Shown in pieces: positions 13,425 to 56,065 of a DNA stretch of 64,000 nt. Position numbers and translations under genes: made by a program. Origin of the DNA: a virus; the IMG/VR virus record IMGVR_UViG_3300046703_000335, positions 24,336 through 88,335 of that record; one strand, given 5' to 3'. The notes under the pieces were generated by a model, which was not told the DNA's origin, made no database searches, and saw nothing but the letters and a program-made list of their open reading frames with translations. Each line of letters begins with the position of its first letter. Position 1 is the first letter of the stretch.

Positions 13425-14222
13425 TTATAAATATTTGTCCAACCCTAAAATTGATTTTTTTTCTGATAAATCTTCTAATATTGGAACCTCTTCAACCCAT
13501 CGTTCAGTGTAACTTCGATCCTGTGATATAATTGGCATATCAAGATCAACTACCCACTTATTCCTGACAACACACCCAACCGGATAAGTAATCTTAAATG
13601 CTGATGTCCCTCTTTTATATGAAGTCTCTATATCATTCCAGTTGATACCCAATTGAAGCATTAACATATCCTGTTTTTGACTTCCATTTTTACCCATAAG
13701 TTGCTTATGTGAAAAATGTGCCATAGCCACTTGAGAGACTGAATTTTTTTCACAATCTCTTTCTCGCCAAATAAAATAGTTGGTAACTTCTTCCTTTGGG
13801 AGATTCCAGGCACGGGCGTCAAATATCGCAGGACCCTTTTTCTTGTATTGCTCTGGAAGATATGTCAAGCAAGCATGGTTAAACGCCGCAGTGCATATAG
13901 AAGCAGCCACGCTCTCAATCTTATTCGCCCTATTATCAAACCACGCCTCAGTACCTATACTTTGATAATCACACATTAATATGGATATCTCATCACTTTG
14001 ACAATATCCGAGTCTGGCACCCTCAATTTCACTACAGGTCTTTACCATAGCATAGTTCATGCACTTTTTTAGGTTACTATCAAACGGTCTAACTAAACCC
14101 CTTGTCCATGTATGAAATGCCTTTCCGTCAATTCTTAGCATAATGGGAATTCTGCGAACTAATAAACGAAATGCACGTTGCTCATAATCCTTCATGCGAT
14201 CCCCAAGAGAATCCTTACTCAT
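13425..14222 (-). CDS. Thg1-like protein (tRNA-His guanylyltransferase family, 3'-5' nucleotidyltransferase)
   Basis: N-terminus MKDYEQRAF..RIDGKAFHTW matches the Thg1/TLP signature (MKDYE .. R.DG.AFH). Confidence 0.7.
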   Translation of the reverse strand: MSKDSLGDRMKDYEQRAFRLLVRRIPIMLRIDGKAFHTWTRGLVRPFDSNLKKCMNYAMVKTCSEIEGARLGYCQSDEISILMCDYQSIGTEAWFDNRANKIESVAASICTAAFNHACLTYLPEQYKKKGPAIFDARAWNLPKEEVTNYFIWRERDCEKNSVSQVAMAHFSHKQLMGKNGSQKQDMLMLQLGINWNDIETSYKRGTSAFKITYPVGCVVRNKWVVDLDMPIISQDRSYTERWVEEVPILEDLSEKKSILGLDKYL

Positions 14223-19548: not shown

Positions 19549-20664
19549 TTAATTTTCTTCAAGAATTCTTTTTAATCGAGTAGAACACTCTACAGAATCC
19601 GGCAGGGTATTAAAGTTGGGACGAACTCTCCGGTGGATATTTTTCCATAGTTTAAGACTATTTCCCTTATGATAATACATAAGATCTGAGACAAGATCTG
19701 GATATCGCTCAGTTACCATAAAAAACAAAGTTTTATGGCTTATGTCCGCAGGAATATCTTTCATAACTTCCTCATAAGTTTCCTTAACCCTAATATAGTC
19801 ATTATGGTGGATATCGTATATCTGCCGATACAAGAGGTCTGTAAGCTCTCTAAACTCTTCGGGTACCTCTGCTATGAAACTACGGGGGATATCCGCTTTA
19901 TCGAAGTCCCAGGCACCCCAGAATGATAGTAGAGTCATATGTGATAGAATTCTATGAATTTTACAGTATTCTGATCCCTTAACCTTAATCTTAAGACCAT
20001 TGTGGAAAGTAATAACAAAACCCTCCTCAGTCGCCGGTAGAGTCTTACAATAAGCATATAACTCATCCAGGCTATTGAACTCTACAGCCTCTACCACAGT
20101 GGCTCCTATGCGCTTTCCTTCCTCTTTAAGGGAGGTGTAGGATATCTCTTCTCCGGTTTCATTATTGATGACACCTAAAAGTATCAAATCCTCTGTATCA
20201 CCATAGTCTATTACAATTTTATTTTCTGGATAGACCATCTCAAAAAGATATGTATGCCCTTTAAGCATTTCTGTTGACCTTATATGCTTCCGGAACCATA
20301 TAGTAGCCCACTGCGCCTGATCTGATAAGAAAGATCCCTTGGTCGCTATATAATCTTGACCTTCATATCTAAAGTAAATCGCTAAGCTACCGTCAATCTT
20401 CTTAAGGGAAATAAAAGGCTTCTTCGCCAAGTCACAAAGATCAATCTTACCCATAAGCTCGGAGGCATTAAAGAATTTCTTAAAGGAACGTGAAACCACC
20501 TCTCCAGTGATCCTATTAAATATGATACCCCGTGCAGCCATAGTGATATCATCCCAATGCCCGTCATATTGACATTCCCGTGAATAGCAAAAAAGAACAA
20601 GATCATTCCACTCAGTATGTCTGACATAAGGATGGTCATAAAATTTCTTAATATCAAAAGTCAT
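19549..20664 (-). CDS. ATP-dependent RNA ligase (Rnl-type KxDG nucleotidyltransferase)
   Basis: KKIDGSLAI motif I (KxDG). N-terminal segment and size resemble the T4 Rnl / PF09414 family. A separate NAD-dependent DNA ligase is present in this window. Confidence 0.5.
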   Translation of the reverse strand: MTFDIKKFYDHPYVRHTEWNDLVLFCYSRECQYDGHWDDITMAARGIIFNRITGEVVSRSFKKFFNASELMGKIDLCDLAKKPFISLKKIDGSLAIYFRYEGQDYIATKGSFLSDQAQWATIWFRKHIRSTEMLKGHTYLFEMVYPENKIVIDYGDTEDLILLGVINNETGEEISYTSLKEEGKRIGATVVEAVEFNSLDELYAYCKTLPATEEGFVITFHNGLKIKVKGSEYCKIHRILSHMTLLSFWGAWDFDKADIPRSFIAEVPEEFRELTDLLYRQIYDIHHNDYIRVKETYEEVMKDIPADISHKTLFFMVTERYPDLVSDLMYYHKGNSLKLWKNIHRRVRPNFNTLPDSVECSTRLKRILEEN

Positions 20665-23202: not shown

Positions 23203-23862
23203 TTACGATATAAGAAAATCCCAACCTTTAACAAGCCATTCTACATAAAGATCATCTTGTTTACCATACCAACCACAAGCATAGGGGGAATTAGCTTCTA
23301 CCAAAGCCATTTCTCCAGAATCCAACAATCCGAAATCCACTGCTCCACAATAACCTTTAGGAATATCTATATCTAATTCGGGAGCATCTGGAGTATTTAG
23401 CTCATCACCAGAATACCATTCTCCTGTTAGAATCTTTCCATCAGCGATATAGTATCTCCACTCATTTATAAAGGTAACGATATCTGAACACCAATAGGGG
23501 CCTCGTTTTTTCTTTCTATAGCCCCCTACTGTAATAAAACCATTAAATCTTTTATGACGATCTGCTGGCTTAATAAATACGCCCCTATTTTGGGGCCATA
23601 AAGTCGATTTCCATACTTTTCTATAAAGGTGGTCTTTTAAAAAATCAGGATAATAATCTGGTATAGTCTTTTCACTGGGTAAGAACTTTTCGCACCAATC
23701 CACCCGACCAGAAGGAATATATCCTTCTGGTCTATCTCCCAGTCTATTACAAAGTTTATAGGGGATCCTTTTTAAGATACAGTAGCTTATGATGGCTTTC
23801 TCTTCATTAGCACAGGAACCATAAACTAAATGTGATTGTAATGCAAATCCTTTAATATCCAT
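23203..23862 (-). CDS. ATP-grasp-like protein
   Basis: The C-terminal half (FIKPADRH .. GYCGAVDFGLLDSGEMALVEANSPY) resembles ATP-grasp carboxylate-amine ligases. Confidence 0.45.
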   Translation of the reverse strand: MDIKGFALQSHLVYGSCANEEKAIISYCILKRIPYKLCNRLGDRPEGYIPSGRVDWCEKFLPSEKTIPDYYPDFLKDHLYRKVWKSTLWPQNRGVFIKPADRHKRFNGFITVGGYRKKKRGPYWCSDIVTFINEWRYYIADGKILTGEWYSGDELNTPDAPELDIDIPKGYCGAVDFGLLDSGEMALVEANSPYACGWYGKQDDLYVEWLVKGWDFLIS

Positions 23863-27144: not shown

Positions 27145-27185
27145 AGTATATTATCTTTTATTTATATTATATGTTAATTTACAAA

Positions 27186-27586
27186 TGGAGGAGAGGGGAG
27201 TTGAACCCCTGTGTCAAGTATGATCCCTATTAATCTCTACATGCTTAGTTTAATTTGCACTACCCCTCTGTAAATATCAATTAAACAAAATTTTTAACAG
27301 AGTGCATTAAGTAATTTCGGTCCCCTTCTCTATTATGCTTTTCGGGTACCCTACTTCGTGATCTTTTAAGAGATCGGATCCCACGATTGTCCGATACTCT
27401 TTGCTACCTTTAATTAGGCAGCGATTGAGCTTGCAACACCTAAACTGATATTATCAGCAAAGGCGAGAGCAAACTTAACAGCATAATCTTTTGCAATTAT
27501 ACTTTAACGGATGATTTACGAGGCCAACCGTTATCCTCAACATGCAATTAATACTTCACCTACCTGATCGAAACCAGTACTCCCCC
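27186..27586 (-). ncRNA. ssrA: tmRNA (ssrA), about 401 nt, one-piece
   Basis: Minus-strand 5' end GGGGGAGTACTGGTTTCGATCAGG resembles the E. coli tmRNA 5' end. An internal CGGTTGGCCTCGTAAA block matches the PK1 region. The 3' end ..CACAGGGGTTCAACTCCCCTCTCCTCC-A forms a T-arm plus acceptor. The acceptor pairs 7/7 with the 5' GGGGGAG, including a G3-U70 pair and an A discriminator, which are alanine identity elements. Candidate tag ORF: GCA AAA GAT ... GCT GCC TAA. Confidence 0.8.
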
Positions 27587-28055: not shown

Positions 28056-28730
28056 TTAATTAACTCTACATATTTTAAAGTCCTTCAAGCTTATAAGATA
28101 ATTTTCTTTTACACCAGTATCAACAAATCTTATTAAAGATTCTGTACCGACAATTACAGCCAAAAGTGCAGTATTGCGTGCAAGGGGATACTCACAAACA
28201 TCTATCCCTGTACCTTTTTTAGGTACACGATATCTCTCGTTCCAGGTAACTTCTGCGCAATCCTCTGATAAGCCTATGTGCATACAATCGATCTTATTAA
28301 CTAAGCAATGATCCATAACTATTTTACGACTCTCCGGATTATCAAAGCCATCAATTACTATCGAATCAGCTTTTAAAAATTTTCGAACATTGGAAGCCTC
28401 AAGTTTTTTATCGATAGGATCTATAGTAACTTTCATAACATTGAAGAGATGTGACCGGATAGCTGCAACTTTCAGTTGACCTACATCCCGACTATTCCAA
28501 ATTTGAGTATTTCGGTTATGTTCCTCTACTCTATCAAAATCGATTACAGTCATTCTCTGAAAACCCTGACGTACCAGATTATCTGCGAGGTTCGAACCGA
28601 TCGCACCTACCCCGCATAACGTGATATGCTGTGCAGCTATCTTCTTTAAAAGATCTTCCCCACGGTAAGCTCCCTCATGTACAAAAGTTTTCATTATCTC
28701 ACCTTTTTTATATTTTCTATGACATTGCAT
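28056..28730 (-). CDS. ThiF/MoeB/E1-like adenylyltransferase
   Basis: TLCGVGAIGSNLADNL Rossmann motif, VIDFDRVEEHNRNTQ, C-terminal IDVCEY cysteine. Confidence 0.7.
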   Translation of the reverse strand: MQCHRKYKKGEIMKTFVHEGAYRGEDLLKKIAAQHITLCGVGAIGSNLADNLVRQGFQRMTVIDFDRVEEHNRNTQIWNSRDVGQLKVAAIRSHLFNVMKVTIDPIDKKLEASNVRKFLKADSIVIDGFDNPESRKIVMDHCLVNKIDCMHIGLSEDCAEVTWNERYRVPKKGTGIDVCEYPLARNTALLAVIVGTESLIRFVDTGVKENYLISLKDFKICRVN

Positions 28731-29890: not shown

Positions 29891-29975
29891 TTTTACTCCA
29901 ATACAAAAAAGCTAATGAATGCAAATTTCTATAGTTCATTCTACTATTTAATATACTATTTTAAAATTAGCTATA

Positions 29976-30015
29976 CAATAAAAAAGAAAGGGGAAGACTT
30001 TTCCCGGTCTTCCCC
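29976..30015 (-). terminator. Rho-independent terminator
   Basis: Minus strand GGGGAAGAC-CGGGAAAA-GTCTTCCCC followed by TTTCTTTTTTATT. Confidence 0.7.
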
Positions 30016-30101
30016 CTCAAATTATATCTCACCCGAGAGTTGTAATCTCAGGATTAGATAGTGATGGTCAATAAATAATACCCTCGCCCTTTATAATAAG
30101 T

Positions 30102-30192
30102 CTCCCACTCTACCGCTGAGCTATAGACCCCCGAAGTTATCTATTACAAAATAACTTAGAGGGTCTAAATGGATTTGAACCACTGACAGGAG
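30102..30192 (-). tRNA. Candidate circularly permuted tRNA gene B. The 3' half (anticodon-stem 3' strand CTCCT, T-arm AGTGG-TTCAAAT-CCATT, acceptor TAGACCC) at 30160-30192 precedes the 5' half (GGGTCTA-TA-GCTC-AGCGGTA-GAGT-GGGAG) at 30102-30130.
   Basis: Acceptor strands pair 7/7 (GGGTCTA/TAGACCC). Anticodon-stem strands pair 5/5 (GGGAG/CTCCT). D-loop carries GG and the T-loop is TTCAAAT. The T-arm lies upstream of the D-arm on the coding strand, the reverse of a normal gene. The 29-nt linker contains a hairpin, AAGTTAT..ATAACTT. Confidence 0.5.
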
Positions 30193-30313
30193 TGTTTTAA
30201 GGCTACCTATTCTTTATTAACCACCTTCAATTTTGAATCTTGGACATTCAAAACACTAATCATCAACTTAAATCTGGTATGCAAAAAAATAAAAATAATC
30301 TTTTGCCTTTTAC

Positions 30314-30392
30314 AGAAGTACTCTACCAAACTGAGCTACCTTCTCCATATTTTTTAGGGGAGAAGGAGAGGAATCGAACCTCCGCGTCTTCT
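30314..30392 (-). tRNA. Candidate circularly permuted tRNA gene A. The 3' half (AGAAG-ACGC-GGAGG-TTCGATT-CCTCT-CCTTCTC-C) at 30359-30392 precedes the 5' half (GAGAAGG-TA-GCTC-AGTTTGGTA-GAGT-A-CTTCT) at 30314-30345. Linker is 13 nt.
   Basis: Acceptor pairs 7/7 (GAGAAGG/CCTTCTC). Anticodon stem pairs 5/5 (CTTCT/AGAAG). Canonical GTTCGATTCC T-arm and GCTCAGTTTGGTAGAG D-arm. No matching partner exists in the canonical gene order. Leader and trailer are complementary (AAAAG/CTTTT repeats) next to the anticodon stem. Confidence 0.55.
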
Positions 30393-30441
30393 GATATAGA
30401 AAAAGACAAAAGTGCTTTTAGGATAATTAACCTACTCGGGG

Positions 30442-31215
30442 CTAATTAACTTTAAACCCCTGATTAATATAATTAAAAAATTTCAGTCCAACTTTTGCTG
30501 ACTCAGTTTCCTGAGCATTTGCTTTTGACCGGGCGATCTTCACACCAGAGATCAGGCAATCAATACGATTGAGCAACTGACTCTTCTGTTTTGGAGATAA
30601 ACCTCCACTAGCGTAGGTTTGTGTCCAAGTTCCAACTGCTTCATCCGACATAACAATCTCAGTTTGTGCTTGAAACTTATCAGTAGCTTCAGCCTTGGTA
30701 ATAACCTTTGGAATTTTCTTTGTTCTGATACGTTCTATTGGTTCAGATTTCCATACCCCTGTTCGAGTTACATCATCTGACCAAACCTTTGAGGGATCAA
30801 TTGTAGGAATCTCTTCATAGACCTTCCTAACTCTTTCCAGAGCGGATTCCATCTGTACCAGAAATGTTACAGGGGCCTTTTCAAGAATAATCTCTGTAGT
30901 GCCATCAGGAAGCTCTACAACGACATCCGCAGAGGCACTCTGATTACCACGTTCTTTCTGAAGTTCAATATCAATAAAACGAACTATCGATGCTTGAGAA
31001 TAATCAAGTTTATCCTTAACTGTTGTGACCATAGGAGTAAACTCTTCATCAGGGCGATCCTTATCCTGGTCATTGAAAGGAGAATAACTCTTACGTGATT
31101 CAATGAAGTGTGCCGAGCGCTGATTGAATGTTTTAAGAGTTTCATCAATAATCTTGGCAAAGACATCCTTTGCATCTTTTTCTACTGCAAGAAGCTCATA
31201 CAATTTACCACCCAT
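30442..31215 (-). CDS. Hypothetical protein (possibly structural)
   Basis: ORF only. Confidence 0.35.
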   Translation of the reverse strand: MGGKLYELLAVEKDAKDVFAKIIDETLKTFNQRSAHFIESRKSYSPFNDQDKDRPDEEFTPMVTTVKDKLDYSQASIVRFIDIELQKERGNQSASADVVVELPDGTTEIILEKAPVTFLVQMESALERVRKVYEEIPTIDPSKVWSDDVTRTGVWKSEPIERIRTKKIPKVITKAEATDKFQAQTEIVMSDEAVGTWTQTYASGGLSPKQKSQLLNRIDCLISGVKIARSKANAQETESAKVGLKFFNYINQGFKVN

Positions 31216-31375: not shown

Positions 31376-32569
31376 TTATCTCTGAGCAGTATTATTCTTA
31401 CCTGCCATTCCCATATTAATACCGAGATCCATAGCTGTCTTAGCATTCAGCATATTAATGAGATCAGTTGCTCCATTTGCACCTTTACTATTTTCACCCA
31501 TAATAACAGAAGGAACCCAGTTACCTTTATATTCAGAGATAGCTTTAGCATAATTAGCGTTAACTTCTTTATAAGCCTCTAATTTTTTATCCAAAGCACC
31601 ATCAGCTGTCATAACAAGTTTCTTACGTTCAGCCTCTCCCTGCCCCAGAAGAATCTGTTCTGCTTTCTTAAATTCAGCAGCCTCTTTGTTAAGTTTAGCA
31701 ACCTCTTTTTCTTGCTCCCCAAGAGTGACTGCGCGCGCCTTGACAACTTCCTGTTCCCAGCGACTTCTTGCAGCATTAGCCTCCCCCTGCTTTGCAACAG
31801 TAATTGCATTCTGTTCTGCTTTTTTAGCATCGGCTATTGAAGTTTGAACATCCATAGTAATCTGCTGTTGACTCTGAATTTGCTTTTCAATTGCCCCATC
31901 ATAAGGGAGGGCATTAATCGCGAAGTTAAATGTTTTTATGCCAAAAATAGCCATAGCAGCATCTTCTTGACGTTCAGGCACTCCATTTTTCATTATTATA
32001 TCAACTACAGTTACGGTTTTTTCAGCGCCAGTCATTTGGTCTATAGTCTTTGCTTCCTTAGAAACAGTTCGGTACACACCATTTTGAATCTGATCCTCTA
32101 CATACTGAATAAGATAGTTTCTTTTTTCGGCATATGACTCTTTGGAAGACATAAGTGGTCCAGTCATATAAATGGCTTTATTTACTACTGTTGCTACTAA
32201 CTGATTTTCAAGAGCTTGGATGCTACCAAATTTTGAATGAATATTAGAAAGATTAATGGGATCCACAGGTAATTCATAACTTACACTGCCGTCCATTGTT
32301 CCATGTCCACCATCATTAAATCTTACTTGAGTTTTAAAGGAGTATATTTCTCTTTTAGGGTACTTAGATACCTTACCAAAACCTTGCCATTTTACACCGG
32401 CAGTTACATGCCAGGTAAGCTTACCAGAAATCGGACTTTGAACTACTAAGATCTGATTAGCATTATTGACCTCAACAAATTGAAAAATTGACCACAAGCC
32501 TATTATGCATATGATCCCCCCAACGATTAATTTAAAAACTCCAGCAGGACTTTCCTGGGCTCTTGCCAT
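31376..32569 (-). CDS. SPFH/band-7 (stomatin/prohibitin/HflK-like) membrane protein
   Basis: N-terminal TM helix, central SPFH-like region, C-terminal Ala/Glu/Lys-rich coiled coil. Confidence 0.55.
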   Translation of the reverse strand: MARAQESPAGVFKLIVGGIICIIGLWSIFQFVEVNNANQILVVQSPISGKLTWHVTAGVKWQGFGKVSKYPKREIYSFKTQVRFNDGGHGTMDGSVSYELPVDPINLSNIHSKFGSIQALENQLVATVVNKAIYMTGPLMSSKESYAEKRNYLIQYVEDQIQNGVYRTVSKEAKTIDQMTGAEKTVTVVDIIMKNGVPERQEDAAMAIFGIKTFNFAINALPYDGAIEKQIQSQQQITMDVQTSIADAKKAEQNAITVAKQGEANAARSRWEQEVVKARAVTLGEQEKEVAKLNKEAAEFKKAEQILLGQGEAERKKLVMTADGALDKKLEAYKEVNANYAKAISEYKGNWVPSVIMGENSKGANGATDLINMLNAKTAMDLGINMGMAGKNNTAQR

Positions 32570-36573: not shown

Positions 36574-38136
36574 TTACCTAAAAGATCCACGAGAAATCAA
36601 AGGCGTTTCCATGATCTCGAAAACCAGGTCAAGCTTAGATTTACGAGATAAAAGAGGGATCAATCCCGGTAATGCATAATAATCATTACCTTCAGGGGTA
36701 TAGATATCATATTCAATACCCGCCCTCTTCAAGTTACTAGAAAAGGTATTATCCGCAGGTCCTATATGAATGATCACCACATTTGGACGAACATTAAATG
36801 TCTTTGCATACTGTTCGTACACTGTAGTAAACATAGGACTAGCATTTTCACCCTCATCCGTTATCACCACAATAGTTTCCACACTCTTTTTCTTTAACAA
36901 CAAATAATTAAGTGCACAACCCATCGAAGTTGACCCTCCGGCACGTATGGGTCTAAATGCATTCTCCCAGTCGGTCAAAGAAGTTCCTTTTGCCTCAATC
37001 ACTGCTGGAGTTGTATCAAATGCTACCACAGTAAGTTCTGCTATTGTAGCACCAGAAATCAATGCTGCGGTATTCTTACCAACTTCAATTGCTTTATCCA
37101 TTGATCCGGACCGGTCAACAAATACAGCGGTTGATACTGAAATCTGACCACTCTTTTTGACCTGAGCATCTGCTACTTTATCCAATTGTGCTAAAACATC
37201 TACATCAAGGATACGACCAGTTTTAGCAGCTGTTTTGGACTTAAGTGTCGACACATTCTTTGACTTTTCAGCCTTTTTCAATTTTTCCTGAATAAGTGCT
37301 TTTGTAGCTTCATTAGCCATAGCACCCTTCTCTTCAAGAGAAGCCATGTTATTAATGACTTCCATAGAAGACATGCTATTGATAAGAGCCACGAGTATAG
37401 TTGGAGTAATTTTATCGATCAACCCAATTGCGATCGTATATGGAATTTTATTTTCCACAATCATCTTTGCTGCATCAGCCGGTTCTGCTTCTGATATCTT
37501 TTTCAAGATAGTCAGCTTAGAGTCTTCTGGTATTTTCCCATCAAAAAGAATAGCTTGAGCTTGTGCTGAAGGTTTTACTTTAATTTTCTTGTAAAGGCTC
37601 TTCAAATCAGCTCGATTCTTCAAAGCGACTGTATCAAATCGATCCTTATCCGCTTCCAACCAACGCAAATAATTTTTGATTTCAGTTTCAAAAGAGGAAG
37701 TGGTATTTCTTTTCATACCTACAGTCTTCTCTTCGATCCGAACTTCATCGATTGACTTCTTATCGATCTTGATCTTTTTACCTGTCTTTATCCGAATCTT
37801 AACCTTTTTACCTCGGATAAAACCAAGTATTTTATTCTTCATGAAAACCGCATGTTTTCTGAAAAGAGCAAGACCGACTTCACGATTATCGATAAAGGGA
37901 TCCGTAATAAGCATGGCTGCAAAGATCTCGTTATGATCCCTGATCTCGCCCTTAGCGAGATACCAGCAAGCAAGATGCGCATAGAACAACGGATCATTAT
38001 CCCGAATATCCTCATGGATCTTTTTTAAAACGTCCGTATCACGATGAGGACAAGTCATGAATGAATTGAGCACCCTAACACGGATATCCCCTTCAACTAC
38101 AGGAGCTGCAGGGGGAATAACTCTACGAGTTGTCAT
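36574..38136 (-). CDS. Ro60/Rsr-like protein (TROVE domain plus C-terminal vWA domain)
   Basis: N-terminal DNDPLFYAHLACW resembles the conserved Ro60/Rsr block NDPALFALALC. C-terminal vWA MIDAS motif VFVDRSGSM. Length of 520 aa is typical of Ro60. Confidence 0.6.
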   Translation of the reverse strand: MTTRRVIPPAAPVVEGDIRVRVLNSFMTCPHRDTDVLKKIHEDIRDNDPLFYAHLACWYLAKGEIRDHNEIFAAMLITDPFIDNREVGLALFRKHAVFMKNKILGFIRGKKVKIRIKTGKKIKIDKKSIDEVRIEEKTVGMKRNTTSSFETEIKNYLRWLEADKDRFDTVALKNRADLKSLYKKIKVKPSAQAQAILFDGKIPEDSKLTILKKISEAEPADAAKMIVENKIPYTIAIGLIDKITPTILVALINSMSSMEVINNMASLEEKGAMANEATKALIQEKLKKAEKSKNVSTLKSKTAAKTGRILDVDVLAQLDKVADAQVKKSGQISVSTAVFVDRSGSMDKAIEVGKNTAALISGATIAELTVVAFDTTPAVIEAKGTSLTDWENAFRPIRAGGSTSMGCALNYLLLKKKSVETIVVITDEGENASPMFTTVYEQYAKTFNVRPNVVIIHIGPADNTFSSNLKRAGIEYDIYTPEGNDYYALPGLIPLLSRKSKLDLVFEIMETPLISRGSFR

Positions 38137-38902: not shown

Positions 38903-39100
38903 TTCTTTTATGAAGATCGTAAGAAAAATCAATAAGAAGTAGAGCACCTTATGGGTGGAGCAGTTGGGTTACTTTGGGATACCCACTTATGGTATCCAAG
39001 AAACTTTTTTAATGCTGATGTTTTGTAACTTTTTCTCATATCCGTGCTATCCTAAAATATTTAAAAAATTACGCAGAAGTTAGGGATGCTAATTTTTTGG

Positions 39101-39173
39101 CTTCTAATGATGGACTTGAACCATCGACGCATTTCTTATAAGGAAATTGCCCTACCAACTGGGCTAATTAGAA
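39101..39173 (-). tRNA. tRNA, anticodon UAU (Ile, AUA codon). CCA encoded at 39098-39100.
   Basis: Minus strand TTCTAAT-TA-GCCC-AGTTGGTA-GGGC-A-ATTTC-CTTATAA-GAAAT-GCGTC-GATGG-TTCAAGT-CCATC-ATTAGAA-G-CCA. All stems pair perfectly. Confidence 0.75.
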
Positions 39174-39536
39174 AATGTAAGCAACCAAAGTAATTGCGTA
39201 ATTTTTATTATTGTTTGTTTCAATCCGCGCTTTTCAGCGACTATATAAAAATGAGCTAATATAAGAATCTCTACCTAAGTCGTTCGTACTATATGATGAC
39301 CAGATACCCATACTGGGCAGTGATCATCAAGTTTTTTTTACCCAAAAAAAATGTAAGTCCAAACTATAATGGTAAAAATTCTATTAATTCGTTTGTTCGT
39401 TTCAATCCACGCTTTTCAGCGACTGTACAAAAGTAAAAAAGTTGAAACTACAGAAGTCGTGCATGCTAGTCTGAGGGATTTGAACCCCCTACCTATTGAT
39501 TAGAAGTCAATTGCTCTACCAAATGAGCTAATGTAA
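39174..39536 (-). repeat. Degenerate tandem array of ~175-bp units, each starting (minus strand) with CTTACATT
   Basis: AATGTAAG on the plus strand at 39174-39181, 39346-39353 and 39529-39536. Conserved AGTCGCTGAAAAGCGYGGATTGAAAC segments at about 39214-39247 and 39394-39430, each carrying a CGCT-GAAA-AGCG tetraloop hairpin. Confidence 0.45.
39464..39536 (-). tRNA. tRNA-Arg(UCU)-like element whose 5' acceptor strand does not pair. Positions 1-8 are replaced by the CTTACATT unit motif. Possible pseudogene or repair substrate.
   Basis: Good D-arm GCTC-ATTTGGTA-GAGC, anticodon arm ATTGA-CTTCTAA-TCAAT, T-arm GGGGG-TTCAAAT-CCCTC. The 3' acceptor AGACTAG has no complementary 5' strand. Confidence 0.45.
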
Positions 39537-39679
39537 GCCTTCACTGTAATTGTAGTTTCAACCAAGTACCCTATTCATCAGGGTTACATCTTAATAATAC
39601 TAAATAATTTTATATTATGCAAATACTATTTTAAAATGAAATCCAATGGATATATAATATAGATCGTATTAAAATATTT

Positions 39680-51595: not shown

Positions 51596-52224
51596 CTATC
51601 AAATTTCCTCTGAAGTTTTTGTTTGATAAATTTTACCATATTATCTGAGACTCCTAATATAGCTGCTACATCAGAAGAATTGCACCCAATCTTCTTACAA
51701 TCCAGAAAAGTAATCATCTGATTAGCGCTATTTCTTGATTCTGTATTTTTAACATAATCTTTAAATTCATTCAAATATTGATTAAATGTACTCTCCTCTT
51801 CTTCATCAAAAACCCGAGGAGTACAAGGGGAAAAGTCAATTTTGTAGGGTCCATTAAATGCTCCTATATGTTCCCAGACATCATCTGCATCAAAAATAGT
51901 TTGCATACCAATTCTTACTTTAGTTATGAAGTCATATTGCACCGAAACATTTTTCTTTGCCTTAACGGGAAGAAGCCAGCATAACAGGGTTGATATATAG
52001 GTATCAAAAGAACCTTTATCTTCTTTGTATAATTCAAGAGCTTTAGTTTGAATCATCCTAAGATAAAAATCTTGAAGGTGTTCCTGGATCAATTCACGAT
52101 CTCTGATCCCTGTTTTATATATAAAAAAATTTTGTAGTTGCTTACCATTTTTTTTCACAAACGATTTAACATCCCGGACGATTTCCATAAAAACCCCATA
52201 GTGTGATATGATATTTTTAGACAC
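51577..52224 (-). CDS. Sigma-70-family-like transcription factor
   Basis: Region-2-like ELIQEHLQDFYLRMI and C-terminal HTH NSSDVAAILGVSDNMVKFIKQK. Confidence 0.4.
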   Translation of the reverse strand: MSKNIISHYGVFMEIVRDVKSFVKKNGKQLQNFFIYKTGIRDRELIQEHLQDFYLRMIQTKALELYKEDKGSFDTYISTLLCWLLPVKAKKNVSVQYDFITKVRIGMQTIFDADDVWEHIGAFNGPYKIDFSPCTPRVFDEEEESTFNQYLNEFKDYVKNTESRNSANQMITFLDCKKIGCNSSDVAAILGVSDNMVKFIKQKLQRKFDRWKTLN

Positions 52225-55200
52225 TTAACATAAGACATAATGCCAAAAACGAATCTACAGAAAATTCTTCTGTAGATTTGTACAAAATTTCCCCATCCTT
52301 ATTCATAAGACAAAGTTTATTCCTGGGTCCTACAAATAAGTTATTTCCTGATCTCAGTACTTCCAAAATGAACTTTATTTTTTGAGCTGAAATAATATTT
52401 ATATCTATTGTGTAATTGAAAGAGCCATCTTTATCAATATTCTTTTCAATTTGTATGTCTTTACAAAAAGAAGTATCTATTTTTTCAGGTACTCGTCCAA
52501 GAATCTTAGGTACTTCCTTCCCAATATCCCTCTCCCCAACCACCGAATTCTGATAATAGCTATGTGCTTCATTTGTTGTTGACCCAGTAATACTGGAAGT
52601 TTTATTTATTTCTGAGTCTATTTCTTTTTTTTCCCCATTATTGATCAGATCATTTTCCAAGGTTGGTACTGTAATATCTGGTTTAACAGGTTCCTCAGGT
52701 TTAAGGGGCTTCTCAGGAAGACATTCAGAGGGTAATTCTGAAGATTGTAAAACAGATACTGGACTTGATACATCTGCCATTTTCGCTTCCATTTCTTTCC
52801 AATAATCATGATCTACATGAAAAGAGTCCCCATATTCGGCATCAACTTCAAGTGGGACTACCCACTTCAATTTATCTGTGATATCTCTAATTTTCATTAG
52901 TCTACATAATTCCGGAACAATCATATCCATCTTCTCTTCCCGTACCTCATAAAGCACTTCATCATGTACAGGAAGGAGAATTTTTACATCATCCTGAAGA
53001 TTATTATCATATATCCACTTATATACTCTCCACAAAGCAATTTTTATTACATCTGCGCCAGTATTTTTACTTATTATTCCTACTGAATCAAATCTATGAA
53101 GATCAGAATGCACCGCTAAAGTATAGGTATCTTCAATTTTATCTATTACAGTTTTTCGTTTTAATTTATAATGGTAGTAAATCTCTGATGGGAGCTCACA
53201 AGTATATTTCTCCATCAAAGATATCATCCCTGGTAAAGTCACAACTTTACCTGTATTGAGTTTACAAAAATATGCACAATCATTAGCATTTTTTCGATCA
53301 TATACAGAGTGCAAATTTGATCGGATAACTTCTCTTAAAAAGTTAGGCAAAATCATTTTATTAATAGTATTTCGCAGTTTCCATATCGTAGGAGGCAAAT
53401 CTAATAAATCTTCTACCTTTTTAAGATCTTGCCATTCCAATTTAAAATTTCCATTAGTGACAGATCTAACAATTGAAGATAATCCTAATGTCCAACCTAT
53501 AAGCTGAACATCCCGTAATAATGCTATATTAGGGGTATGGTACCCATATCTATTCTTTCTTTTTTTACACCCATCTGTATCAAAGTATCCTTGTAAGAAA
53601 GCTTTCCGCATAGCTACAGGTGCTTTATATATTACTTCAGGTATTCTCTTTCCTCGGGCATCAGCAGGTATATAGCCCAATTTTATAAATAAATCTACTA
53701 ATCCTTTTGAGTTTATCTGTACTTGATATGACTCCCCTTTAGCCGAATTAGTTTTCCTCATATTTGAAAGACATAAGCCAAGATCTTTCAAAGATTCCTC
53801 AATGGTAGGAAGATACTTTTTAATTTTTTCTGCACCCAGGCATAAAGTTAAGGACTGTCTTGAATCAGTTCTTATACCTCCATCTCCTATAATATAACCC
53901 ATCAAATAGCCAATAAAATCCCATTGTTCCTTAGTTTTTATACAAAAGGATTTTCCATTATGTACTTGAGACTCATAGGTATAATCCGCAGGATATTCAC
54001 CAAATTGTTTTATGGTAGGTATAGACACACATATCTCTGTATCTTCATTAAGATCACTAAAATGTCTAAACTCATAACCCTCTTTACCTACGACTAATAC
54101 TTCATGTCTTGTATCACAGTTTAAAACCATACCATTAGATAATTCTAATTGAGCAAGCTGTGCTTTACCTCTATTTATTACATCAAAGGTCTCCCAAGAA
54201 GTACCCGTCCAAATCTTTAATTTTCTTAATAACTCTATAGGTAGAATATAAAGTTCACCTATAGGTATATATCCTTTATTAGTTAGTACTCTCTCTTCCT
54301 TTGTCAAGCACCCTTGAATTGCTGAATTTATAGCGCATCTGTCACCTTTGGATTGTATACCTTTATCTGGTGAATTATAAAATTCTTCCAGGGGTCTTCT
54401 TCTTCCAAAAGCAGTCTTACTATATCCCCTCTTTCGGGATGCCGCCCATTCTCTTTTGATCCAGCTATTTAAACCTACATATTCTTTAAAAAAGTTAAGA
54501 ATCATTTTCTTGGCAGTCTCAAAAGGTATTTTTGCCTGTGCAGCAAAGCCCCCTGCGCCTCCTCCGTACATTGTCAAGAAGTTTACCGTTTTGCCAAGAG
54601 AGCGTTCTTTCTTTGTAATTTCAGTTTTACCTGTTATAATTTTACCTGTGATAGTATGAAGATCTCCTGTGCCATGTAAAAACTCTTGAACCCATTTTGG
54701 CTCTTTTGAAAAATTTGTGGCTATTCTAAGCTCTTCTCCACTATAGTCAATGGACACCATTTTGAATCCAAAATGAGCAATCATAGCTCTTCTCAAGTTT
54801 ACAGCGTAAGGGTTACTCTTATCATAGGTAGGAATGTTCTGACAGTTTACTCCACAATATCCATCAATTTCTAAACCTTGACCCCCGGACCCACTAAATC
54901 TACCGGTATCTGCCTGAACCTGATTAAGCTGAAATTTAACCTCATCATTTTCATCGGCGTTAGTCAGCCAATTATATAGATAAGTGCTTTGAATTTTAAC
55001 ATAGCCACGATAAGTCAAGATTAAATTAATGATCGGATTTTTAGTAGAAATCATCTCAAGTATTTCACTATTTGTCTGATAATGCCCAGTTTTTGTTTTT
55101 TCTGCTTTAGGAGGATAAGGTAATTTTAATTCATTAAAAAGTATGGAGCCAAGCTGCTGTGTGGAATTAATATCAAACTCATGTCCGACTATTGAGAAAA

Positions 55201-56065
55201 TCTCTTTTATTAACTTTGACATCATAATTTCTACTTCAGCATTAATCTTTATAAGATACTGCTTATCTATTTTTACTAAGTTGCGCTCCATTTCCATAGT
55301 GACAAAGAGACACCGTTTTTCTACCTTATAAATTGCCCACGGTCCTTCTTTTCCTGTAGGATCTATGGCATTAAGTTTACCTTTAAGATATAAATATAAT
55401 GCCATAGTATTCATTCCATCACCACCTCCATAATAAACTGCTTTCTGTGGTGGGACCAGATAAAATGCAACTACTCCTTTTTTTGTACCTTGTATTCCAA
55501 GATCGTCAATTTCAAGCTGAGGCCTATCAAGAAGTGCCCCAGAAAGATATTTCAAATTTTTTGTTTTTCTTGATGCATCCTCAATTGCTGCCATAAGATA
55601 TGTATCTTCATACATATCTTCATTAGTAAATTCCACTCCATGGGTTAATAATATTTGACCATCATATTTAAAGTTATGGAAAATAAGTACACAATTAGCA
55701 GCAAGTTTTTTTGTTTGTCGTATCATAAAATTTAATGATACATTAAATTCCTCAGCATGTTCATGAGCTACAGGGATATAGATACCTTCATCGGGATCGT
55801 GTGAAAGACATATTCCTACTATCTTTGCATGACAGCCATTATCTGCATCTTTACGGGTATTAAGGCTGTTAGTTTCAAGATCATATACGCATAATCCCTT
55901 CTGAACGCACTTATCGATATACTCTTCAATTTCTGTTTGTTTTGTAAGAAGTATGAAACGTTTTGTTTTCATCCAAGGACGAAGTTCAATAAGTTCTTTT
56001 ACTTTTATACTGGTAAAGTCGTCTAATAATGTCGTAGCTACCGCTATGTTATCTGATTTACTCAT
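52217..56065 (-). CDS. Family A DNA polymerase with 3'-5' exonuclease, interrupted by an intein
   Basis: Exo I VYDLETNSL. Motif A VSIDYSGEELR. Motif B KERSLGKTVNFLTMYG. Motif C LLPVHDEVLYEV. The extein junction INSAIQG | intein | TGADVIKIAL matches the PolA QG-TAADIIK region. Confidence 0.9.
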   Translation of the reverse strand: MSKSDNIAVATTLLDDFTSIKVKELIELRPWMKTKRFILLTKQTEIEEYIDKCVQKGLCVYDLETNSLNTRKDADNGCHAKIVGICLSHDPDEGIYIPVAHEHAEEFNVSLNFMIRQTKKLAANCVLIFHNFKYDGQILLTHGVEFTNEDMYEDTYLMAAIEDASRKTKNLKYLSGALLDRPQLEIDDLGIQGTKKGVVAFYLVPPQKAVYYGGGDGMNTMALYLYLKGKLNAIDPTGKEGPWAIYKVEKRCLFVTMEMERNLVKIDKQYLIKINAEVEIMMSKLIKEIFSIVGHEFDINSTQQLGSILFNELKLPYPPKAEKTKTGHYQTNSEILEMISTKNPIINLILTYRGYVKIQSTYLYNWLTNADENDEVKFQLNQVQADTGRFSGSGGQGLEIDGYCGVNCQNIPTYDKSNPYAVNLRRAMIAHFGFKMVSIDYSGEELRIATNFSKEPKWVQEFLHGTGDLHTITGKIITGKTEITKKERSLGKTVNFLTMYGGGAGGFAAQAKIPFETAKKMILNFFKEYVGLNSWIKREWAASRKRGYSKTAFGRRRPLEEFYNSPDKGIQSKGDRCAINSAIQGCLTKEERVLTNKGYIPIGELYILPIELLRKLKIWTGTSWETFDVINRGKAQLAQLELSNGMVLNCDTRHEVLVVGKEGYEFRHFSDLNEDTEICVSIPTIKQFGEYPADYTYESQVHNGKSFCIKTKEQWDFIGYLMGYIIGDGGIRTDSRQSLTLCLGAEKIKKYLPTIEESLKDLGLCLSNMRKTNSAKGESYQVQINSKGLVDLFIKLGYIPADARGKRIPEVIYKAPVAMRKAFLQGYFDTDGCKKRKNRYGYHTPNIALLRDVQLIGWTLGLSSIVRSVTNGNFKLEWQDLKKVEDLLDLPPTIWKLRNTINKMILPNFLREVIRSNLHSVYDRKNANDCAYFCKLNTGKVVTLPGMISLMEKYTCELPSEIYYHYKLKRKTVIDKIEDTYTLAVHSDLHRFDSVGIISKNTGADVIKIALWRVYKWIYDNNLQDDVKILLPVHDEVLYEVREEKMDMIVPELCRLMKIRDITDKLKWVVPLEVDAEYGDSFHVDHDYWKEMEAKMADVSSPVSVLQSSELPSECLPEKPLKPEEPVKPDITVPTLENDLINNGEKKEIDSEINKTSSITGSTTNEAHSYYQNSVVGERDIGKEVPKILGRVPEKIDTSFCKDIQIEKNIDKDGSFNYTIDINIISAQKIKFILEVLRSGNNLFVGPRNKLCLMNKDGEILYKSTEEFSVDSFLALCLMLSV
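53063..54310 (-). mobile_element. Intein (416 aa, protein residues 586-1001) with LAGLIDADG homing endonuclease, inserted in the polA finger/palm region
   Basis: N-terminal Cys (CLTKEERVLT). Two LAGLIDADG motifs (LMGYIIGDGG and LQGYFDTDG). C-terminal block G TYTLAVHSDLHRFDSVGIISKN ending in Asn, followed by Thr +1. Confidence 0.8.

What the first reader, a model, noticed from the sequence alone, without database searches (positions are those of the whole stretch)
30102..30392. Two apparently circularly permuted tRNA genes in a viral genome
Two minus-strand elements have canonical tRNA T-arms, D-arms and anticodon stems. In each, the half carrying the anticodon-stem 3' strand, T-arm and 3' acceptor strand lies upstream of the half carrying the 5' acceptor strand, D-arm and anticodon-stem 5' strand. 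Within each element the two halves pair perfectly: acceptor 7/7 and anticodon stem 5/5. No partner exists in the canonical order; upstream is a protein-coding gene. Leader and trailer sequences next to the anticodon stems are mutually complementary, as in processing helices of permuted or intron-containing pre-tRNAs. The unit is closed by a strong terminator at 29976-30015. Permuted tRNA genes are known from Cyanidioschyzon and a few algae and archaea, where BHB-dependent splicing endonuclease processes them. A viral instance, in a genome that also encodes its own RNA ligase and a Thg1-like enzyme, would imply a novel processing route.
Basis: partly seen in the sequence, partly recalled or inferred. 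Interest (0 to 1): 0.85.

Follow-up and report, generated by a model that had tools for sequence, protein, structure and literature searches.

The report
Phage tRNA-mimic (Y-RNA-like) RNA pair
The two "permuted tRNAs" are real, conserved structured RNAs, but they are best read as tRNA mimics of the bacterial Y-RNA (YrlA) type rather than as tRNA genes, and they belong to a previously undescribed cassette that follows a protein of unknown function (DUF7873) in many phages.

Summary
Two minus-strand elements (cores 30314-30392 and 30102-30192) carry an anticodon-stem 3' strand, T-arm, acceptor hairpin, D-arm and anticodon-stem 5' strand in that permuted order. No canonical tRNA is present.

The interpretation as permuted tRNA genes is not the best one:
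- Each element folds as a long terminal stem, an internal loop and a tRNA-like module with a closed acceptor. This is the YrlA (bacterial Y RNA) architecture, which its discoverers themselves describe as resembling circularly permuted tRNAs.
- Rfam YrlA is the top hit for the first element over the full model, but below threshold.
- There is no bulge-helix-bulge motif and no conserved anticodon loop.
- The second element's acceptor is capped by a hairpin that covaries.

A divergent Ro60 orthologue, recognisable by fold only, lies 6 kb upstream on the same strand. A Band-7 gene, an Rnl1 ligase and Thg1 are nearby.

New here: such modules follow DUF7873 genes in 30 of 33 phage loci, including cultured Klebsiella, Ralstonia, Rhizobium, Gordonia and Arthrobacter phages. 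The same covariance model also finds them beside Ro60-like genes. About half of the relatives encode NCCA after the acceptor 3' strand, so processing at the acceptor end in those relatives is not excluded.

Verdict: a new variant of a known kind, of moderate interest.

The parts
30300..30414 (-). E1: the complete first RNA. It has a 12-bp terminal stem (30401-30414 with 30300-30311), an asymmetric internal loop and a tRNA-like module. A U-rich tract follows at 30283-30299.
   Evidence: MFE and centroid fold. Rfam YrlA matches the full model 1-114 at 30294-30406, 29.5 bits, E 2.5e-4. Model R1 scores 41.9 bits.
30314..30392 (-). E1 tRNA-like core: anticodon-like stem 3' strand, V loop, T-arm, acceptor closed by the loop C-CCU-AAAAAAUAU, D-arm, anticodon-like stem 5' strand.
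   Evidence: Descriptor score 21/21. RNAalifold on 7 orthologues predicts the T-arm and closed acceptor, with 8 of 13 pairs showing compensatory changes.
30230..30284 (-). Conserved inter-element segment: the TTGCATACCAG motif (30274-30284) and the hairpin GUGUUUUGAAUGUCCAAGAUUCAAAAU (30230-30256). Its role is unknown; it may be a promoter or processing element for E2.
   Evidence: Conserved in the syntenic loci L002-L004 and L006 in the MAFFT alignments and seen by eye in the raw sequences of L091-L096; coordinates.
30063..30225 (-). E2: the complete second RNA. It has a roughly 21-bp interrupted terminal stem, a large asymmetric internal loop and a tRNA-like module.
   Evidence: Fold z = -4.6. 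On 11 orthologues, 86.8% of cells are paired against 41-47% in slid controls, and 36 of 50 pairs are compensatory.
30102..30192 (-). E2 tRNA-like core, with a 9-bp acceptor helix extended by a capping hairpin (30134-30157).
   Evidence: Descriptor score 21/21. RNAalifold predicts all helices unaided. Helix 5 (acceptor plus cap) has 16 pairs, 98.8% paired, 11 of them compensatory.
30081..30092 (-). Conserved purine-rich motif AAAGGGCGAGGG on the 3' side of E2's internal loop. The GGCGA is kept in L002 and L006. It is a candidate protein-binding site.
   Evidence: Alignments A2, A4 and A9. More distant relatives carry UAUAUCGUUA or AUCGU at the equivalent place.
29987..30018 (-). Intrinsic terminator closing the unit. 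It is preceded by a small hairpin at 30032-30052.
   Evidence: Terminator scan: 12-bp stem followed by a T-run. The equivalent GC-rich hairpin and T-run aligns at the same place in L002-L004.
30442..31215 (-). DUF7873 gene immediately upstream. It is the conserved genomic partner of the RNA modules.
   Evidence: Pfam PF25283, 230.7 bits. Modules lie within 800 nt downstream in 30 of 33 loci. No informative fold match.
31376..32569 (-). Band-7/SPFH protein gene directly upstream of DUF7873.
   Evidence: Pfam Band_7, 30.9 bits. Band-7 next to tRNA-like RNAs and YrlA is noted in bioRxiv 10.1101/312249.
36574..38136 (-). Divergent Ro60/Rsr orthologue (helical ring plus VWA domain with a DxSxS MIDAS motif), 6.2 kb upstream of the RNAs on the same strand.
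   Evidence: AF2 model pLDDT 82.8. The top 13 Foldseek PDB hits are all Ro60/Rsr/TROVE over the full length (1yvp E 3.6e-11, TM 0.61; 2nvo; 9l5y phage Ro60). Pfam gives only a weak VWA_2 hit. D341, S343 and S345 are invariant.

Best explanation
E1 and E2 are two small non-coding RNAs of the Y-RNA-like (YrlA-type) tRNA-mimic class. They are not genes for translating tRNAs.

Each RNA pairs its own 5' and 3' ends into a long stem. The stem opens through an internal loop into a module that copies the tRNA elbow: T-arm, D-arm with G18G19, a possible G15:C48 pair, a 7-9 bp acceptor helix and a 5-6 bp anticodon-like stem. The acceptor is closed by a loop (E1) or by an extra hairpin (E2), and there is no anticodon loop. 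This much is shown by sequence, folding and covariation.

Inferred from what is known of Ro60-Y RNA particles: the stem and internal loop bind a protein partner, either the phage Ro60-like ring or the adjacent DUF7873 protein. The tRNA-like module recruits, or is recognised by, tRNA-handling or RNA-repair and decay factors. The particle would therefore act in RNA quality control or repair during infection, in a genome region that also carries Band-7, Rnl1 ligase, Thg1, tmRNA and tRNAs.

The pair is one instance of a conserved phage cassette: DUF7873 followed by one or two such RNAs.
For: - Architecture.
- YrlA is the best Rfam hit for E1 over the full model. It is also the hit for the orthologue in L006 (38.2 bits) and for DUF7873-adjacent RNAs in Rhizobium phage RHph_TM30 and Gordonia phage Ziko. 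Those score the same (31-36 bits) as the two RNAs next to the annotated TROVE gene of RHph_TM30 (36-37 bits).
- Covariation.
- A covariance model built only from E2 orthologues finds E1 (E 9e-10), the modules after DUF7873 genes, and modules no more than 1.5 kb upstream of Ro60-like genes in L050, L052, L054, L055, L061, L062, L008 and L098.
- A Ro60 fold is encoded 6 kb upstream on the same strand.
- DUF7873 and Ro60/TROVE lie about 5-6 kb apart in this window and in RHph_TM30. In Arthrobacter phage Mimi, DUF7873 lies about 2-3 kb from a 432-aa ORF that I did not test but suspect is the Ro-like protein annotated in the relative Atuin.
- Positional enrichment: 30 of 33 loci, 38 modules against 0 elsewhere.
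- Literature: YrlA occurs in 254 bacteria and 22 phages and is a tRNA mimic (PMC4201824). It has a closed acceptor, no anticodon loop, and 'resembles circularly permuted tRNAs' (10.1101/312249). TROVE protein plus a tRNA-like partner occurs in some jumbo phages (PMC7824862).
Against: - Rfam scores are far below the YrlA gathering score (29.5 against 69 bits), and E2 is not hit by YrlA at all.
- YrlA's GNCGAAN0-1G motif near the 5' end is absent. E2 has only GGCGAGG, and on the 3' side.
- The RNAs are 6.2 kb from the Ro60-like gene, outside the 4-kb criterion of PMC4201824.
- In 28 IMG/VR DUF7873 loci no Ro60-like gene lies within about 10 kb of the DUF7873 gene (less where the contig ends). 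In one 424-kb genome the two are about 300 kb apart. The RNAs therefore track DUF7873, whose function is unknown.
- 18 of 38 related modules encode NCCA after the acceptor 3' strand. This hints at a real 3' end in those relatives.
- No expression or binding data exist.
Confidence: 0.7

Rival explanations
1. Genuine circularly permuted tRNA genes. In this view the leader-trailer helix brings the ends together, an endonuclease trims them, a phage ligase such as Rnl1 seals a 7-nt anticodon loop, and RNase P plus 3' processing open the acceptor linker to yield a working tRNA.
For: - There is a complete tRNA core, and any rotation is called a tRNA by ARAGORN.
- The acceptor is 7 bp.
- NCCA follows the acceptor 3' strand in 18 of 38 relatives.
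- U occupies the position-33 equivalent in 19 of 33 modules.
- The cassette sits inside tRNA arrays in RHph_TM30 and Mimi.
- Rnl1 and Thg1 are encoded in the window.
Against: - A BHB-like leader/trailer occurs in 1 of 33 modules.
- The junction is an asymmetric internal loop of variable size, with no conserved anticodon. Rotations give AUA or AAA for E1 and AAA, UAA or UUA for E2.
- E1 and E2 themselves lack CCA (C-CCU and U-CUA).
- E2's linker is a covarying hairpin coaxial with the acceptor, which is a poor RNase P substrate.
- The conserved motif after the stem (AUCGU or GGCGA) sits at variable offsets, like a binding site rather than a loop.
Confidence: 0.07
2. Two-piece tRNA-like RNAs. 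RNase P cuts at G+1 inside the acceptor linker and the 3' tail is trimmed to, or repaired to, CCA, as reported for M. smegmatis YrlA. This would give a nicked mimic that carries a free CCA end but remains held together by the terminal stem.
For: - NCCA enrichment is 18 of 38 against an expectation of about 1 in 64.
- E1 has a 12-nt single-stranded loop after C-CC.
- There is a precedent in PMC4201824 and 10.1101/312249.
Against: - The window's two RNAs lack CCA.
- E2's acceptor continues as a helix.
- Nothing in the sequence shows cleavage.
- This is a sub-variant of the best explanation rather than an exclusive alternative.
Confidence: 0.15
3. The elements are tRNA-like 3'-UTR or processing elements of the DUF7873 mRNA. 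In this view they act as punctuation or stabilisers cut by RNase P or Z, with no trans-acting role.
For: - They lie immediately downstream of DUF7873, always on the same strand, in 30 of 33 loci.
- The consensus scan finds no sigma-70-type promoter on the minus strand between the DUF7873 stop and E1/E2, and only one terminator, after E2.
Against: - The same RNA class occurs next to Ro60-like genes where no DUF7873 gene lies within the fetched locus.
- The long terminal stems, conserved internal-loop motifs and tandem duplication are not needed for simple punctuation.
- FBKp24 has an annotated promoter between DUF7873 and the RNAs.
Confidence: 0.06
4. The elements are a permuted two-piece tmRNA, or remnants of tRNA fragment duplication at an attachment site.
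For: There are weak partial hits to the permuted beta_tmRNA model, at 11-15 bits.
Against: - The gathering score for that model is 84.
- The elements have a full D-arm and anticodon-like stem, and no tag reading frame was identified (not searched for).
- A standard tmRNA is already present at 27183-27586.
- Covariation across distant phages excludes decaying fragments.
Confidence: 0.01

Closest known systems
YrlA (Rfam RF02553), the tRNA-like bacterial Y RNA that partners Ro60/Rsr
   Same: Both have a terminal stem made of the 5' and 3' ends, an anticodon-like stem, then T-arm, closed acceptor stem-loop and D-arm in the same order, with tRNA tertiary-contact nucleotides. YrlA also occurs in phages, and a Ro60 orthologue is encoded nearby on the same strand here.
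   Different: - The Rfam score is less than half the gathering score.
- There is no GNCGAA motif at the 5' end.
- The RNAs are 6 kb from Ro60, not within 4 kb.
- They are a tandem pair tied to a DUF7873 gene.
- E2 has a much longer terminal stem and a capped acceptor extension.
- Many relatives encode NCCA.
[quoted passage not shown]
   Same: It is a tRNA-like RNA encoded beside a Band-7 protein in RNA-repair neighbourhoods. Here Band-7 lies two genes upstream. RtcB is nearby in L077 and L063.
   Different: b7a-tRNA is described as resembling an authentic tRNA in canonical order, whereas E1 and E2 are permuted with closed acceptors. I could not read the original paper.
Circularly permuted tRNA genes of Cyanidioschyzon merolae and some algae and archaea (own knowledge)
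   Same: The 3' half precedes the 5' half, and leader and trailer pair with each other.
   Different: Those genes have a BHB motif, a reconstitutable anticodon loop and a disposable linker, and they rely on a splicing endonuclease. None of these features is seen here.
Two-piece (permuted) tmRNA
   Same: Both show the permuted order of T-arm and acceptor 3' strand before the acceptor 5' strand. The Rfam beta_tmRNA model partially matches this segment.
   Different: There is no mRNA-like tag. A full D-arm and anticodon-like stem are present. Scores are 11-15 bits against a gathering score of 84.

Membership tests
YrlA / bacterial Y RNA | A module ordered T-arm, closed acceptor stem-loop, D-arm, set on an anticodon-like stem, with tRNA tertiary nucleotides | tested here: met
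   G18G19, the UUCRANY T-loop, U8 and a possible G15:C48 pair can be read directly in both elements.
YrlA / bacterial Y RNA | The 5' and 3' ends pair into a terminal stem | tested here: met
   For E2 the outer helices have compensatory changes in 16 of 21 pairs.
YrlA / bacterial Y RNA | Reaches the Rfam RF02553 gathering score (69 bits) | tested here: not met
   E1 scores 29.5 bits (E 2.5e-4 in 601 nt). E2 has no YrlA hit at E up to 10. RNAs adjacent to the annotated TROVE gene of phage RHph_TM30 also score only 36-37 bits.
YrlA / bacterial Y RNA | GNCGAAN0-1G Rsr-binding motif near the 5' end (PMC4201824) | tested here: not met
   The motif is absent from both 5' regions. E2 has GGCGAGG on the 3' side (30081-30092).
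YrlA / bacterial Y RNA | Encoded within 4 kb of a Ro60 orthologue on the same strand (PMC4201824) | tested here: not met
   The strand is the same, but the RNAs lie 6.2 kb downstream of the Ro60-like gene. RNAs of the same class lie within 1.5 kb of Ro60-like genes in relatives.
YrlA / bacterial Y RNA | Binds Ro60/Rsr and is modified by TruB and DusA | not testable with these tools
   This needs RNP pull-down and modification mapping.
Circularly permuted tRNA gene | The 3' half is encoded upstream of the 5' half, and the halves pair with each other | tested here: met
Circularly permuted tRNA gene | A bulge-helix-bulge motif is formed by leader and trailer | tested here: not met
   1 of 33 modules, against 0.1 expected by chance. 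Neither E1 nor E2 has it (folds).
Circularly permuted tRNA gene | A 7-nt anticodon loop and an anticodon conserved among orthologues can be reconstituted | tested here: not met
   Flanks differ among orthologues. The U33 equivalent is present in 19 of 33 modules only, and the anticodon depends on an arbitrary junction.
Circularly permuted tRNA gene | The linker between the acceptor ends is a disposable spacer | tested here: not met
   E2's linker is a hairpin kept by compensatory changes. E1's loop sequence is conserved among orthologues.
Circularly permuted tRNA gene | A mature joined tRNA is detectable | not testable with these tools
   This needs RNA-seq or RT-PCR.
Ro60/TROVE protein (ORF 36574-38136) | A helical-repeat ring plus a C-terminal VWA domain with a MIDAS motif | tested here: met
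   Full-length Foldseek matches to Ro60/Rsr structures. The DxSxS motif (D341, S343, S345) is invariant.
Ro60/TROVE protein (ORF 36574-38136) | Matches Pfam TROVE by sequence | tested here: not met
   Only VWA_2 matches, at 22 bits and below its cut-off. A profile against PDB TROVE chains gives E 0.29.

The most novel reading that the evidence does not exclude
The DUF7873-linked RNAs are not passive mimics. In this reading they are matured into tRNA-like molecules with a free CCA end, by an RNase P cut in the acceptor linker, as the NCCA in half of the relatives suggests. They may also be sealed at the anticodon side by a phage RNA ligase. That would make them a viral permuted or two-piece tRNA system with a new processing route, working together with the uncharacterised DUF7873 protein.
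Probability: 0.08. Interest if true: 0.9.

Novelty: new variant of a known kind. Interest (0 to 1): 0.55.

Why it matters
Y RNAs and Ro60 are poorly understood outside a few bacteria. Three things here bear on that.

First, a Ro60 fold that sequence models miss is common in huge-phage contigs.

Second, tRNA-mimic RNAs of the YrlA architecture form a conserved cassette with an uncharacterised protein family (DUF7873) in dozens of phage lineages. These include culturable phages of Klebsiella, Ralstonia, Rhizobium, Gordonia and Arthrobacter. That gives tractable systems for asking what the tRNA-like module of Y RNAs is for, which is an open question in the cited papers. It also nominates DUF7873 as a candidate new RNA partner.

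Third, there is a practical annotation point. These modules are invisible to tRNA finders or are mis-called, for example as 'tRNA-Sup-TTA' in FBKp24, or are covered by spurious small ORFs, as in Ziko gp126.

Tried and rejected
- blastn of the region against GenBank phages found no match.
- The search for related loci with the single DUF7873 protein found nothing. An alignment was needed.
- A T-arm/acceptor DNA pattern scan of IMG/VR returned mostly ordinary tRNAs ending in CCA; only 3 of 38 were true modules.
- A perfect-looking module in LR756511 (L001 32342-32470) proved to be a tandem-tRNA artefact, tRNA-Asp followed by tRNA-Pro. This is the false-positive type that PMC4201824 warns about. 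Later scans excluded hits overlapping ARAGORN tRNAs.
- MAFFT could not align E1 with E2, nor the 3' part of the E1 orthologues. Formal pair counts were therefore made on the E2 orthologues and on the covariance-model alignment.
- The sequence-only test of the 520-aa protein against PDB and Pfam failed. Only the fold comparison identified Ro60.
- Burroughs & Aravind 2016 and the 2020 Annual Review on Ro60 could not be read.
- attP-type duplication and two-piece tmRNA were considered and rejected (see rival explanations).

Full report
**1. Observation**

On the minus strand, 30392-30314 (E1) and 30192-30102 (E2) each read in this order: anticodon-stem 3' strand, short variable loop, 5-bp T-stem with a UUCRAUY loop, 7-nt acceptor 3' strand, linker, complementary 7-nt acceptor 5' strand, UA, D-arm with GG, and anticodon-stem 5' strand. 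Every helix position pairs, giving 21 of 21 in my descriptor.

ARAGORN and Rfam tRNA find nothing in the native order. After rotation, ARAGORN calls a tRNA for each of the eight ways of splitting a 7-nt junction between trailer and leader.

The flanks pair into terminal stems. A terminator lies at 29987-30018. The gene upstream is protein-coding. Rnl1-type RNA ligase (19549-20664) and Thg1 (13425-14222) are present.

**2. What the structure is**

Folded with flanks, E1 consists of a 12-bp terminal stem, a 7x1 internal loop, a 6-bp anticodon-like stem, the T-arm, an 8-bp acceptor closed by a 12-nt loop, and the D-arm. E2 is the same with two differences: a roughly 21-bp interrupted terminal stem, and a 9-bp acceptor continued by a 9-bp capping hairpin (z = -4.6).

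In an E-value scan of 29900-30500, the best Rfam family is YrlA (Y RNA-like). It matches E1 over the full model, terminal stem included, at 29.5 bits and E 2.5e-4. This is well below the gathering score of 69.

The YrlA papers describe exactly this topology: a tRNA mimic with T, acceptor and D stem-loops, no anticodon loop and a closed acceptor, 'resembling circularly permuted tRNAs'. They report YrlA in 254 bacteria and 22 phages near Ro60 genes (PMC4201824; bioRxiv 10.1101/312249).

**3. Protein context**

The 520-aa ORF at 36574-38136 lies on the same strand, 6.2 kb upstream. It has only a sub-threshold VWA_2 Pfam hit and no PDB sequence hit. An AF2 model built from 35 homologues has pLDDT 82.8. 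Its top 13 Foldseek PDB matches are all full-length Ro60, Rsr or TROVE structures, including a phage Ro60. The VWA MIDAS residues are invariant. It is therefore a divergent Ro60 orthologue. Its family has 480 detected homologues, many on contigs of 100-470 kb.

Directly upstream of the RNAs are DUF7873 (30442-31215) and a Band-7 protein (31376-32569). A tmRNA lies at 27183-27586.

**4. Conservation and covariation**

Syntenic loci were fetched through the Ro60-like and DUF7873 proteins. All of them carry both RNAs in the 480-690-nt gap after DUF7873.

- On a plain MAFFT alignment of 11 E2 orthologues, RNAalifold predicts the whole module without guidance. 20 of 29 pairs are compensatory.
- With the terminal stem added, 86.8% of cells pair, against 41-47% when partners are slid. 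36 of 50 pairs have double changes, and the covariation score is 0.58 against 0.13-0.16.
- The acceptor plus its capping hairpin is 98.8% paired, with 11 of 16 pairs compensatory.
- For E1, the T-arm and closed acceptor are predicted with 8 of 13 compensatory pairs.

**5. A wider cassette**

A descriptor scan, with hits overlapping ARAGORN tRNAs excluded, finds at least one module scoring 20 or more within 800 nt downstream of the DUF7873 stop, on the same strand, in 30 of 33 non-redundant loci. DUF7873 identity in these loci goes down to about 30%. That is 38 modules in 26 kb, and none in the remaining 998 kb (both strands) of the same loci.

A covariance model built only from E2 cores gave the following:
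- It finds E1 at 41.9 bits (E 9e-10) and nothing else of substance in the window.
- It finds the DUF7873-linked modules broadly.
- It finds modules no more than 1.5 kb upstream of Ro60-like genes in L050, L052, L054, L055, L061, L062 and L008, and of the annotated TROVE gene of Rhizobium phage RHph_TM30.

On the 93 distinct hits, 94.7% of cells pair and every pair shows compensatory changes. This alignment is fitted to the model and includes some tandem-tRNA hits.

Cultured phages carry the cassette:
- RHph_TM30, where DUF7873 sits in the tRNA array and TROVE is 5.7 kb away
- Gordonia phage Ziko
- Klebsiella phage FBKp24
- Ralstonia phage phiRSL1
- Arthrobacter phage Mimi

Rfam YrlA gives similar sub-threshold scores to the DUF7873-adjacent RNAs and the TROVE-adjacent RNAs of RHph_TM30: 35.9 against 36-37 bits.

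However, DUF7873 and Ro60-like genes are not generally adjacent. No Ro60-like gene lies within about 10 kb of DUF7873 (less where the contig ends) in 28 IMG/VR loci. In one 424-kb genome they are about 300 kb apart. TROVE-bearing and DUF7873-bearing GenBank phages overlap only partly.

DUF7873 gives a confident model (pLDDT 88.7) with no informative structural relative.

**6. Permuted tRNA genes or mimics?**

Against real tRNA genes:
- A BHB-like leader/trailer occurs in 1 of 33 modules, against 0.1 expected.
- The region beyond the anticodon-like stem is an asymmetric internal loop of variable size.
- The implied anticodon depends on an arbitrary cut and is not conserved.
- E2's 'linker' is selected as a helix.
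- The motifs after the stem (GGCGA here, UAUAUCGUUA or AUCGU in relatives) sit at variable offsets, like protein-binding sites.

In favour of some end-processing in relatives:
- 18 of 38 modules encode NCCA right after the acceptor 3' strand.
- U occupies the position-33 equivalent in 58% of modules.
- E1 and E2 themselves have C-CCU and U-CUA.

I therefore put about 0.7 on 'Y-RNA-like tRNA mimics'. About 0.15 of related probability goes to a nicked, CCA-ended sub-variant in some members, about 0.07 to genuine permuted tRNAs, and the rest to 3'-UTR or processing elements.

**7. Mechanism**

Shown: two conserved structured RNAs, each with a tRNA-shaped module on a terminal stem, genomically coupled to DUF7873 and, at the family level, also to Ro60-like genes.

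Inferred from the Ro60-Y RNA literature: the stem and internal loop dock a protein, and the tRNA-like module engages tRNA-recognising enzymes or effectors. Together they would form an RNP acting in RNA surveillance or repair during infection. This fits the surrounding Band-7, Rnl1, Thg1, tmRNA and tRNA genes, and RtcB in some relatives. Which protein binds is unknown.

**8. Novelty**

The RNA class is known. Three things look new, since 'DUF7873' appears in no paper of the library:
- the DUF7873-linked tandem cassette;
- its breadth, including in cultured phages;
- the fold-only Ro60 family of huge phages.

The RNAs fail several formal YrlA membership criteria: score, 5' motif and distance to Ro60. 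I file them as a new variant of a known kind, not as members.

Noticed in passing
window 39441-39562 (-); also L008 6269-6328 and L098 12016-12080: This is a tRNA-Arg(UCU)-like body with D-arm, anticodon arm and T-arm in normal order but no acceptor stem (Rfam tRNA model positions 7-64, 51 bits). It is held in a 13-bp terminal stem (GUUGAAACUACA / UGUAGUUUCAAC) followed by a U-run, about 1.3 kb upstream of the Ro60-like gene. Similar acceptor-less tRNA hits lie upstream of the Ro60-like gene in L008 and of the TROVE gene in RHph_TM30. It may be a second kind of Ro60-associated tRNA-like RNA.
   Followed up: partly
window 39217-39241 and 39399-39423 (-): There are two copies of a CRISPR-repeat-like 25-mer, GTCGCTGAAAAGCG[C/T]GGATTGAAAC, 182 nt apart. 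They occur nowhere else in the window (0 expected by chance). They are interleaved with the small RNAs of this cluster, each of which is preceded by a GCTTACAT-like motif and followed by AGCAT..ACTTCTG.
   Followed up: partly
window 39098-39173 (-): tRNA-Ile(UAU) with an encoded CCA end. It is the only canonical tRNA that ARAGORN finds in the 64 kb.
   Followed up: no
window 27183-27586 (-); L008 19084-19669; L096 943-1303: The phage encodes a tmRNA (133 bits) with a long tag, AKDYAVKFALAFADNISLGVASSIAA. In relative L008 the 3' end of the tmRNA hit overlaps a group I intron hit (101 bits).
   Followed up: no
L100 3510-3594 (Klebsiella phage FBKp24) and L097 5979-6188 (Gordonia phage Ziko gp126): Public annotations mis-handle these modules. 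FBKp24's 'tRNA-Sup-TTA' is an ARAGORN call with a mismatched acceptor and a weak D-stem that borrows the T-arm and 3' acceptor strand of the second module. In Ziko, a 'hypothetical protein' ORF overlaps the start of the module.
   Followed up: partly
L095 2638-2707: A tRNA with anticodon UCA (opal-suppressor type; ARAGORN labels it 'SeC') sits directly after the E2 orthologue in one relative. This is a possible hint of stop-codon recoding in that lineage.
   Followed up: no
window 28056-28730 (-) and 23203-23862 (-); L008 14757-16399; L092 77-463: A ThiF/E1-like gene lies downstream of the RNA cassette, and JAB-domain genes are recorded in relatives (weak or faint hits; next to ThiF in L008). 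An R2K ATP-grasp gene is also present. Together these suggest a ubiquitin-like conjugation module next to the RNA genes.
   Followed up: no
window 60703-61908 (-) and 52217-56065 (-): There is a TnpB/IS605 OrfB-like gene (Cas12f-like TNB domain). There is also a family-A DNA polymerase interrupted by a LAGLIDADG (intein-like) insertion.
   Followed up: no
window 30230-30284 (-): The spacer between E1 and E2 is about as conserved as the RNAs themselves in the alignments with L002-L004 and L006. It contains the TTGCRTACCA motif and a GUGUUUUGAAUGUCC...hairpin. Its role (promoter, processing site or third small structure) is unexplained.
   Followed up: partly
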